From the IMG/VR virus record IMGVR_UViG_2859810971_000005: a stretch of 16,792 nt of DNA. One strand, given 5' to 3'. Position numbers and translations under genes: made by a program. Below the pieces are notes generated by a model. The model was given only the letters and a program-made list of their open reading frames with translations, did no database searches and was not told the DNA's origin. The stretch comes from a virus (taxonomy: Duplodnaviria > Heunggongvirae > Uroviricota > Caudoviricetes). Below, piece after piece: positions 2,553 to 4,213 of the stretch (positions within the stretch are counted from its first letter, which is position 1; each line of letters starts with the position of its first letter).

Positions 2553-3269
2553 TTACACCCCGCTAAATTCTTCCAGTTTCTGGCGGTGGCTGTCGCTTAT
2601 ATCAAAAGCAAAATCCTCATGCTCTGCCTGGAATGTACCAAACGCCATCAGCGCCGCTACGCTCGGGTCTATCTTGTTCGGTGATTTTTTCTTGTTCGGC
2701 TTGATATTGGCGTTCGCGTCACTCTGCATCACGACGTTACTCATCGACCAAGACAACACCGGATCGCCACGATGCACAATCACCCTGCGGTTAACAAAAA
2801 CTTCGAACGATTTCGCCGCCGGACTGAATCTGAGGTAGGTTTGCGGGAACGGCTCCACCTCAAAACCAGCCCCCTGTAATTGCGTCCTGAGATGCGTGGC
2901 GTTCCACGTATCAAAGCCCACCAGCCTGATATTAAATTTCTCCGCATCCTGCATGATGTCATCTCTGATCCGGTCGTAATCAATGCAGTCACCTGGCGTT
3001 GTGCGTATCCAGCCCGCTTTAGCCCACTGGCGATAGACAGCGCGGTTTTTATTGGCGGGGTTCTGTAGCTGGAACTCCGGCAGATAATGACGGGAAATCA
3101 GCATAATGGTTTTACCGACCGGAAAGGCATAGCATACGCTGGAAATATCGCTGGTTGATGATAAGTCCAGCCCCGCGTAACACTCCTGACCGTGTAAATC
3201 TTCCTCCGTGAACGTTCCGGCACACTCAGCCCATGCACCATTACCCATCCACGGGTAGTCCCCTGACAC
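2553..3269 (-). CDS. terminase large subunit, C-terminal nuclease-domain fragment (frameshifted terL)
   Basis: 238-aa ORF with the RNaseH-like nuclease signature (YAGLDLSSTSDISSVCYAF). It lies in a different frame from the upstream ATPase fragment and overlaps it by 172 nt; a TAA sits immediately upstream in this frame. Confidence 0.85.
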   Translation of the reverse strand: MSGDYPWMGNGAWAECAGTFTEEDLHGQECYAGLDLSSTSDISSVCYAFPVGKTIMLISRHYLPEFQLQNPANKNRAVYRQWAKAGWIRTTPGDCIDYDRIRDDIMQDAEKFNIRLVGFDTWNATHLRTQLQGAGFEVEPFPQTYLRFSPAAKSFEVFVNRRVIVHRGDPVLSWSMSNVVMQSDANANIKPNKKKSPNKIDPSVAALMAFGTFQAEHEDFAFDISDSHRQKLEEFSGV

Positions 3270-4213
3270 CAGATATTAAATCGCTTTGTCATCATCTCCA
3301 CCCACTGCGACGGAATACCCCGCGCTTTCTGGATGGTTGAGGCCAGTTTTTCACGATCCACGGAAACATCAATATTAGGGTTCGCCTTTATCCACATCGC
3401 CGGATCATCAACCTCGTTTTCGTCGTCCAGTTCGTAAATCAGTACAAAAATTGAATCGTTGACCTCTTCGCCGTCCAGGATCTGGCAGCAATAATCATAG
3501 TGCTGTTTACAGGCTGAAACGACGTTACTGCCCGATGTGGTAATGGCAAATAACAGCCCTTCGGGACGTGCGCCCATCCCCAGCTCAAGCGCGGAATAAA
3601 CGCCGTTATCGGGGTGTAGGTGGTATTCGTCCACGATGGAAAGACTGGGGTTTGTCCCCTCGATGGTTGCCGCTTTTGCTGCCAGCGGCTTTAACAGGCT
3701 GTTGCTTTTCGGGTGTATCACCTTATGCGCCTGAATATTCACCCGCCTGCGTAACGGTCGGGATAAAAGGCACATCTGACGCGCATCATCAAACACGATC
3801 CGCGCCTGGTCACGGCTCACCGCTGCGGTGTAGATATCCTGCTGACCGTTCTCCATAATCAGAAACCAGTTAGCCAGAATCGCGGCGGTCGTGGATTTCG
3901 CATTTTTGCGCGGCACTTCGATAAAGGCGCTCGTGTATTTGCGCCGTCCGGTGGCCTTAACCTTAAAGCCGAGGATGCACGCAAAGGCGAACTGCTGCCA
4001 CGGCTCCAGCTCAATGGGTCTGCCACGCATCGGTCCTTTTACGTGCGGGCACACCCTGGAAAAGGCAATAAACCGCTCCACAACCTCACGATCGAACGTG
4101 TAAAGGGGGCTTTTAAGGTCCGAAAAGTACCGTTTAACAGCCTGTTTTAACCGTTTACAGGCCGGAATTTTGCCCGTTTTTACGTCTTCTGCGTACTTAT
4201 TCCAGGCGGTCAA
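3098..4213 (-). CDS. terminase large subunit, N-terminal ATPase-domain fragment (frameshifted terL)
   Basis: 371-aa ORF with Walker A-like PRKNAKST and Walker B LSIVDEYH typical of Terminase_1-family TerL. After ...KRFNIW the frame runs into non-terminase sequence; the correct continuation is the 2553-3269 frame. Confidence 0.85.
   Translation of the reverse strand: MTAWNKYAEDVKTGKIPACKRLKQAVKRYFSDLKSPLYTFDREVVERFIAFSRVCPHVKGPMRGRPIELEPWQQFAFACILGFKVKATGRRKYTSAFIEVPRKNAKSTTAAILANWFLIMENGQQDIYTAAVSRDQARIVFDDARQMCLLSRPLRRRVNIQAHKVIHPKSNSLLKPLAAKAATIEGTNPSLSIVDEYHLHPDNGVYSALELGMGARPEGLLFAITTSGSNVVSACKQHYDYCCQILDGEEVNDSIFVLIYELDDENEVDDPAMWIKANPNIDVSVDREKLASTIQKARGIPSQWVEMMTKRFNIWCQGTTRGWVMVHGLSVPERSRRKIYTVRSVTRGWTYHQPAIFPAYAMPFRSVKPLC

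What the first reader, a model, noticed from the sequence alone, without database searches (positions are those of the whole stretch)
3255..3300. TerL is split by a frameshift between its ATPase and nuclease domains
The ATPase-domain frame (…QWVEMMTKRFNIW) and the nuclease-domain frame (SGDYPWMGNGAW…GLDLSSTSD…) overlap around 3265-3290. The downstream frame has a TAA immediately 5' of its first sense codons, and there is no slippery heptamer at the junction. A 1-nt indel is therefore more likely than programmed frameshifting; loss of one G from a GGG run would do it. Without intact TerL the island cannot package itself unless complemented.
Basis: seen in the sequence. Interest (0 to 1): 0.5.

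Follow-up and report, generated by a model that had tools for sequence, protein, structure and literature searches.

The report
One-base gap splitting a terminase gene
The DNA-packaging gene of a small phage-satellite island next to phoQ is split because one C of a CCCC run is missing, but only in this one assembly, so it is most likely a sequencing error in an island that other mutations had already disabled.

Summary
The split is real in the deposited sequence. terL lies on the minus strand at 2553-4213. It reads as a 371-aa ORF and a 238-aa ORF because one C of a CCCC run is missing (coding-strand CCC, + strand GGG, at 3253-3255). Putting that base back gives a normal 553-aa HK97-type large terminase. 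It is not programmed frameshifting. None of 352 E. coli genomes matching the junction shares the gap, and all ten nearest Shigella-type copies read CCCC with an intact 553-aa terL, including four sister assemblies with almost no substitution differences. The window is CP026810.1 (GCA_002949455.1). Against those ten relatives this assembly has one private substitution and five private one-base deletions. All five sit in G/C runs within 5.3 kb, and one splits the core regulator phoP. That pattern points to long-read homopolymer consensus error (about 0.7). A real strain-private mutation is the main rival (about 0.25). Either way it matters little. The island is a capsid-forming PICI that was already dead in this lineage: its capsid gene has a nonsense codon (W276*), a 97-nt deletion removed the terS start, and an IS1 has inserted. 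Ordinary finding, low interest.

The parts
3253..3255 (-). Site of the one-base deletion: CCC on the coding strand (GGG on +), where all relatives have CCCC. Equals CP026810.1 2317310-2317312.
   Evidence: Alignments. No gap-free match in 352 E. coli genomes.
2553..4213 (-). terL, HK97-type large terminase: 1661 nt here against 1662 nt when intact. Adding one C restores a 553-aa ORF.
   Evidence: Pfam on the repaired protein: ATPase 71-242 and nuclease 252-530. PDB 6Z6D at E=4.5e-42.
3098..4213 (-). Upstream ORF, 371 aa. Authentic TerL residues 1-319, then a 52-residue out-of-frame tail.
   Evidence: This exact product occurs on only 1 contig in the collection.
2553..3269 (-). Downstream ORF, 238 aa. 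The first few residues are out-of-frame, followed by authentic TerL residues 320-553.
4554..4558 (-). Second private one-base deletion inside the window: GGGGG where all relatives have GGGGGG, just 5' of terS.
4197..4568 (-). terS (P27-family small terminase). A 97-nt deletion shared by the lineage (junction about 4533/4534) removed its native start. With G5, the upstream ATG at 4568 happens to fall in frame, giving a 123-aa ORF.
7637..8794 (-). Major capsid gene with an in-frame TGA at 7967-7969 (W276*, TGG to TGA), shared by thousands of assemblies.
   Evidence: the 275-aa fragment is indexed in 3556 collection blocks.
12768..13535 (-). IS1 (768 bp) with a 9-bp target duplication ATTGTTTCG (12759-12767 and 13536-13544), inserted in a 77-aa hypothetical island gene.
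1542..1562 (+). 21-nt direct repeat CGGTGTAGTTAATGGTGTAGT, the probable att site at the phoQ-side end of the island. The second copy lies about 47 nt beyond the right end of the window, between int and roxA.
   Evidence: Islands at other chromosomal sites match the window from 1489 onward.
15563..16792 (-). Tyrosine integrase of the island. The AlpA-type regulator is at 15000-15188(-).
4744..7597 (-). Remaining packaging-module genes, all full-length: HNH 4744-5184, head-tail connector 5184-5480, head closure 5477-5815, portal 5812-7023, prohead protease 7025-7597.
10501..12249 (-). D5-type primase/replication protein of the island (582 aa).

Best explanation
terL belongs to a roughly 15-kb capsid-forming phage-inducible chromosomal island (cf-PICI) integrated between phoQ and roxA in a Shigella flexneri-type chromosome (CP026810.1). 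The gene is split because the deposited sequence has CCC where every relative has CCCC. This missing base is most likely a consensus error of a long-read assembly at a G/C homopolymer, not a mutation in the organism. The real gene is probably a contiguous 553-aa terL. No recoding is involved. Whatever the truth at this base, the island cannot make particles. Its lineage carries a fixed nonsense codon in the major capsid gene, has lost the terS start and upstream region, and, in this clade, has an IS1 insertion. What is shown: the position of the indel, its absence from all relatives examined, its co-occurrence with four other private G/C-run deletions, and the other lesions. What is inferred: that the five deletions are artefacts, since no reads could be examined, and that the assembly is long-read, which rests on its being one closed 4.5-Mb contig that spans IS1 copies.
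For: (1) The indel is a loss of 1 C from C4; repairing it gives an uninterrupted 553-aa TerL that differs by 1 residue from the sister copy. (2) The truncated 371-aa product is on exactly 1 contig of the whole collection, CP026810.1. The lineage's capsid fragment, by contrast, is indexed in 3556 blocks, and each of the six other copies read has a contiguous 1662-nt terL reading CCCC (553 aa in five; a shorter 492-aa gene call in L009). (3) Four sister assemblies, marked by a private connector variant, show 3-6 substitutions over 11-14 kb. All but one of those substitutions are private to the sisters. All four have CCCC, a 553-aa terL and, where their contig reaches it, a 223-aa phoP. (4) Against all 10 relatives, CP026810.1 has 1 private substitution and 5 private indels. 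All five are deletions, all are in G/C runs of 4-6, and all lie within 5.3 kb: terS 5' region, terL, phoP (split into 146+77 aa), and two in the phoP-purB spacer. In this region G/C runs of 4 or more are outnumbered 99 to 248 by A/T runs, so five out of five falling in G/C runs has P of about 0.002 if indels hit runs in proportion to their number. (5) Long-read assembly errors are predominantly homopolymer indels, mostly deletions, and they fragment genes (PMC12007338). (6) None of 352 E. coli complete genomes matching the junction is gap-free. Two other E. coli copies annotated as frameshifted are broken at different sites.
Against: No reads were available, so the base call itself was not tested. 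The sequencing platform of GCA_002949455.1 was not confirmed by any tool. terL sits in an island that is already dead and so is free to decay, and a real private frameshift in a homopolymer is exactly what neutral decay produces. Shigella genomes are rich in true pseudogenes. The closest sisters are not the same strain. The Kastor study cited for error profiles found A/T runs more affected than G/C runs in nanopore data, so the exclusive G/C bias seen here is not explained by that paper. Attributing it to PacBio chemistry rests on my own recollection.
Confidence: 0.7

Rival explanations
1. The deletion is a real mutation private to this strain: replication slippage in a C4 run of a gene no longer under selection, because the island was already defective. 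terL is then a true pseudogene.
For: The island lineage is already inactivated by capsid W276*, the terS-start deletion and IS1, so terL is expected to drift. Independent real-looking frameshifts occur in the same gene in two E. coli genomes. The strain differs from the sister assemblies by a few substitutions, so it is a separate isolate that could carry private changes.
Against: It comes with four other private one-base deletions, all in G/C runs within 5.3 kb, including one in phoP, which is under selection. Only one private substitution occurs in 14-20 kb. A 5:1 ratio of indels to substitutions, all deletions and all in G/C runs, is not a normal mutation spectrum. From my own knowledge, not tested here, even mismatch-repair-deficient E. 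coli gains several-fold more transitions than indels.
Confidence: 0.25
2. The two ORFs are joined during expression by programmed ribosomal frameshifting or transcriptional slippage, giving a full-length TerL from a split gene.
For: None beyond the overlap of the two frames.
Against: There is no slippery heptamer at ACT-ACC-CGT. CCC is too short for efficient slippage (my own knowledge). No relative conserves the two-ORF arrangement: all ten nearest copies and the E. coli copies are contiguous. No Rfam element was found in the window.
Confidence: 0.01
3. The five G/C-run deletions are real and reflect a hypermutable or mutator background. In that case this isolate would be a natural phoP-null Shigella, and the G6-to-G5 change would be a compensatory event restoring an ATG start to terS.
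For: With G5, the upstream ATG at 4568 falls in frame with the terS body, which had lost its own start. With G6 it does not.
Against: One frame in three would do this by chance. There is nothing to select for terS in an island with a dead capsid gene. The private mutations show no excess of transitions.
Confidence: 0.04

Closest known systems
Capsid-forming PICIs (cf-PICIs), prototype EcCIEDL933 of E. coli O157:H7 (Alqurainy et al., bioRxiv 10.1101/2022.09.08.507074; He et al., bioRxiv 10.1101/2025.02.11.637232)
   Same: Size is about 15 kb. Gene order is int, alpA, replication (D5-type primase), then capsid, protease, portal, head closure, connector, hnh, terS, terL. There are no tail or lysis genes. 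O157:H7 genomes carry a terL about 96% identical at the DNA level.
   Different: This copy is degraded: capsid nonsense codon, terS start deleted, IS1 inserted, and terL frameshifted in the record. I did not directly align it to EcCIEDL933 itself. No helper phage or induction was tested.
HK97 large terminase (PDB 6Z6D); Pfam TerL_ATPase PF03354 plus TerL_nuclease PF20441
   Same: The repaired protein matches 6Z6D over residues 46-540 at E=4.5e-42 and matches both Pfam domains contiguously. It sits with an HNH gene and a P27-family terS, as in HNH-dependent cos packaging systems.
   Different: In the record the gene is interrupted at codon 320, inside the nuclease model and upstream of the GLDLS motif.
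Gene-fragmenting homopolymer errors in long-read assemblies (for example Kastor, PMC12007338)
   Same: Single-base deletions at homopolymers 4-6 long that split otherwise conserved genes. They are private to one assembly and absent from short-read assemblies of close relatives.
   Different: Here all five are in G/C runs and clustered in 5.3 kb. The platform and coverage of this assembly were not checked.
Programmed frameshifts of phage and IS genes (for example IS1 insAB', tail chaperone G/GT)
   Same: Two overlapping ORFs, with the second in the -1 frame.
   Different: There is no slippery site, no conservation of the split, and relatives encode a single ORF.

Membership tests
cf-PICI (capsid-forming phage-inducible chromosomal island) | Size about 10-18 kb | tested here: met
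   att repeat at 1542-1562 and about 47 nt past the window end, giving about 15.3 kb with IS1 and about 14.5 kb without.
cf-PICI (capsid-forming phage-inducible chromosomal island) | Integrase plus regulation and replication modules | tested here: met
   Tyrosine integrase 15563-16792, AlpA-type HTH 15000-15188, D5-type primase 10501-12249.
cf-PICI (capsid-forming phage-inducible chromosomal island) | [quoted passage not shown] | tested here: met
   All eight genes are present in the canonical order. Three of them are damaged in this copy.
cf-PICI (capsid-forming phage-inducible chromosomal island) | No lysis genes and no complete tail module | tested here: met
   No such genes in the ORF and Pfam survey, nor in the PGAP annotation of intact relatives.
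cf-PICI (capsid-forming phage-inducible chromosomal island) | Helper-phage-induced excision, small T=4 capsids, and transfer using helper tails | not testable with these tools
   Experimental property. It is predicted to be lost here because of capsid W276*.
HK97-type large terminase (TerL_ATPase + TerL_nuclease) | Contiguous ATPase and RNase H-like nuclease domains in one polypeptide | tested here: not met
   As deposited, the frame breaks at codon 320. It is met only after one C is restored.
Programmed -1 ribosomal frameshift site | Slippery heptamer X XXY YYZ at the frame junction, with the split conserved among homologues | tested here: not met
   The junction is ACT ACC CGT. All homologues examined are single ORFs.
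Long-read homopolymer consensus error | The indel is absent from the reads, or from an independent sequence of the same strain | not testable with these tools
   Only indirect evidence: it is private to one assembly and accompanied by four other private G/C-run deletions.

The most novel reading that the evidence does not exclude
All five G/C-run deletions are real. This Shigella isolate would then be a natural phoP frameshift mutant with an unusual G/C-homopolymer deletion spectrum, and the G6-to-G5 change would have re-created an ATG start for a terS gene that had lost its own.
Probability: 0.05. Interest if true: 0.3.

Novelty: not a real feature. Interest (0 to 1): 0.08.

Why it matters
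It matters mainly as a caution. A frameshifted terminase here would be read as evidence of satellite decay, but the base call is probably wrong. The same stretch of this public assembly also appears to break phoP, a core virulence regulator, so pseudogene counts from this record should not be trusted without polishing. The real biology is modest and of a known kind. A cf-PICI related to the characterised EcCIEDL933 sits between phoQ and roxA in a large Shigella flexneri-type lineage and has been fixed there as a dead remnant, with a capsid nonsense codon and a deleted terS start.

Tried and rejected
- **Programmed frameshifting:** rejected. There is no slippery site and the split is not conserved.
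- **Recurrent hotspot:** I checked whether the two other 'frameshifted' E. coli terL copies (strains 20.1 and JNE141411) share the site. They do not; their deletions are at alignment columns 203 and 1534.
- **IS3-family insertion in the capsid gene:** I first suspected this from the ORF pattern at 7967-9397. It was wrong. The capsid gene has an in-frame TGA, and the only IS is IS1 at 12768-13535.
- **97-nt difference upstream of terS as a private lesion:** it is not private. The whole Shigella-type lineage shares it.
- **Literature search for the accession:** CP026810 and GCA_002949455 gave nothing. One paper confirms that CP026799 is S. flexneri NCTC 9728. The strain name and sequencing platform of CP026810.1 stay unverified.
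- **tRNA and Rfam scans of the window:** nothing found.
- **Clustering test:** Fisher P=0.003, but the interval was chosen after seeing the data, so it is only suggestive.

Full report
**Observation**

The feature is on the minus strand. ORF 3098-4213(-) is 371 aa and carries Pfam TerL_ATPase plus the first part of TerL_nuclease. ORF 2553-3269(-) is 238 aa and carries the rest of TerL_nuclease. The two frames overlap, the downstream frame has a TAA two codons 5' of its GTG start, and the junction has no slippery heptamer.

**Locating the lesion**

A megablast of 2553-4213 against 5,426 complete E. coli genomes found the gene in 534 of them. In the 50 or so rows listed it spans 1662 nt, against 1661 nt here, apart from the two frameshifted copies described below. 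Alignment to an intact copy (strain ESDR8, annotated 'terminase large subunit', 553 aa) shows a single difference in length. The window has GGGGACTA-CCCGTGG where the intact gene has GGGGACTACCCCGTGG. The missing base is thus one C of a C4 run, leaving CCC at 3253-3255.

The authentic protein reads ...FNIWCQGTTPWMGNGAW..., so the 'SGDY' residues at the head of the downstream ORF are out-of-frame. Restoring one C gives a 553-aa ORF with no stop. It has contiguous Pfam matches (ATPase 71-242, nuclease 252-530) and matches the HK97 large terminase 6Z6D at E=4.5e-42. The break at codon 320 is therefore inside Pfam's nuclease model, not exactly between the domains.

**Is the split conserved?**

It is not. 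An 81-nt query across the junction matched 352 E. coli genomes. None was gap-free; the best was 98.8%, meaning one gap. Two E. coli copies annotated as 'frameshifted' (strains 20.1 and JNE141411) are broken at other positions. Programmed recoding is rejected.

**Context**

The window starts with phoQ (1-1461). From about 1542 it carries an island with this content, all on the minus strand:
- integrase 15563-16792 and AlpA-type regulator 15000-15188
- D5-type primase 10501-12249
- major capsid 7637-8794, prohead protease 7025-7597, portal 5812-7023
- head closure 5477-5815, connector 5184-5480, HNH 4744-5184
- P27-type terS 4197-4568 and terL

There are no tail or lysis genes. Intact relatives annotated by PGAP have the same order. 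A 21-nt direct repeat at 1542-1562, repeated just past the window end between int and roxA, marks the probable att sites. This fits the published definition of a capsid-forming PICI: 10-18 kb, an integrase, replication and regulation modules, its own packaging module, and no tails (10.1101/2025.02.11.637232; 10.1101/2022.09.08.507074). In the prototype EcCIEDL933, mutating any one packaging gene abolished transfer, with a single exception.

**Source and relatives**

The exact 371-aa truncated product occurs on one contig only in the collection of public assemblies: CP026810.1, a 4.53-Mb chromosome of GCA_002949455.1. The window is identical to it over the 14.2 kb that overlaps the fetched locus.

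The capsid gene of the window has an in-frame TGA (W276*, TGG to TGA, 7967-7969). Its 275-aa fragment is indexed in 3556 blocks of the collection. Those include CP026799.1, which a paper lists as S. flexneri NCTC 9728. The capsid nonsense codon is therefore a real, lineage-wide lesion. In each of the six other copies read, terL is a contiguous 1662-nt gene reading CCCC (553 aa in five; L009 has a shorter 492-aa gene call), and phoP is uninterrupted (223 aa in five; in L009 it is fused to phoQ in a single 709-aa gene call).

A closer sister clade is marked by a connector-protein variant private to this sublineage (63 blocks). These are mostly short-read contigs of about 20 kb that end inside IS1. 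The four sister copies read show only 3-6 substitutions against the window assembly over 11-14 kb, and all but one of those are private to the sisters. All four have CCCC and an intact terL. phoP is 223 aa in the three whose contig reaches it.

**The decisive pattern**

Against all ten relatives, CP026810.1 has one private substitution (window 5840) and five private indels. All five are one-base deletions in G/C runs:

| Site | Change |
|---|---|
| Just 5' of terS (window 4554-4558) | G6 to G5 |
| terL (window 3253-3255) | C4 to C3 |
| phoP (outside the window; splits it into 146 + 77 aa) | G6 to G5 |
| phoP-purB spacer | G5 to G4 |
| phoP-purB spacer | G4 to G3 |

All five lie within 5.3 kb. 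In this region G/C runs of 4 or more are outnumbered 99 to 248 by A/T runs, so five of five in G/C runs has P of about 0.002 if indels hit runs in proportion to their number. The clustering test (P=0.003) is post hoc.

One-directional, homopolymer-bound indels that fragment conserved genes and are absent from short-read assemblies of near-identical strains are the known signature of long-read consensus error (PMC12007338). A natural spectrum, even in a mutator, would be expected to show more substitutions than indels; that expectation is my own knowledge. I therefore put about 0.7 on artefact and about 0.25 on a real private slippage mutation in a gene already free of selection. This could not be settled without reads.

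**Consequences**

The lineage already carries capsid W276*. It also carries a 97-nt deletion between short CCCCGCC repeats that removes the terS start codon, its first seven codons and the upstream spacer. This clade additionally has an IS1 insertion with a 9-bp target duplication. The island is a fixed remnant.

**Curiosity**

With G5, the upstream ATG at 4568 falls in frame with the terS body. With G6, as in all relatives, it does not. I treat this as a one-in-three coincidence.

**Verdict**

The indel reading is right and the recoding reading is wrong. The lesion is most probably not biological, and in any case it sits in an already dead cf-PICI. Interest is low.

Noticed in passing
window 7967-7969 (minus strand), in the capsid gene 7637-8794: The major capsid gene has an in-frame TGA (W276*, TGG to TGA). 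The resulting 275-aa fragment is indexed in 3556 collection blocks, so the nonsense codon is fixed across a large Shigella flexneri-type lineage and is the primary inactivating lesion of the island.
   Followed up: yes
window about 4533/4534 (minus strand), between the 60-aa ORF downstream of hnh and terS: A 97-nt deletion relative to intact E. coli islands, bounded by short CCCCGCC repeats. It removes the terS start codon, its first 7 codons and the upstream spacer. All Shigella-type copies share it. Whether the lost spacer held the cos site was not tested.
   Followed up: partly
window 4554-4558 and ATG at 4566-4568 (minus strand): A private G6-to-G5 deletion puts an upstream ATG in frame with the terS body, giving a 123-aa ORF. 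In relatives with G6 that ATG frame ends after 17 codons. This is probably a coincidence of an assembly error.
   Followed up: partly
outside the window: L008 19024-19464 / 18794-19027 (CP026810.1, about 278 nt upstream of window position 1): phoP is split into 146 + 77 aa by a G6-to-G5 deletion private to this assembly. Two further private G-run deletions lie in the phoP-purB spacer. In all relatives that reach it, phoP lacks this deletion (a 223-aa gene in all but L009, where it is called fused to phoQ).
   Followed up: partly
window 12768-13535, with flanks 12759-12767 and 13536-13544: A complete 768-bp IS1 with perfect terminal repeats and a 9-bp target duplication ATTGTTTCG, inserted near the 5' end of a 77-aa hypothetical island gene. 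Sister short-read contigs end 26-82 nt inside it, so they probably share the insertion.
   Followed up: partly
window 9077-9934: The segment between the capsid gene and the 92-aa ORF differs from E. coli RM6927. The SSB and PerC genes of the relative are replaced by other small ORFs (100, 53 and 101 aa) with no Pfam match. This looks like a mosaic accessory region of the island.
   Followed up: no
window 13783-14499 and ORF 14196-14942 (minus strand, 248 aa): The early region between IS1 and alpA is poorly conserved with E. coli relatives. It encodes a 248-aa protein with no Pfam hit, in place of the Icd-like and YlcI genes.
   Followed up: no
window 5840: The only substitution private to this assembly against all ten relatives: C interrupts an A5 run (GTAACAATC against GTAAAAATC), in the overlap of the portal 3' end and the head-closure 5' end.
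   Followed up: no
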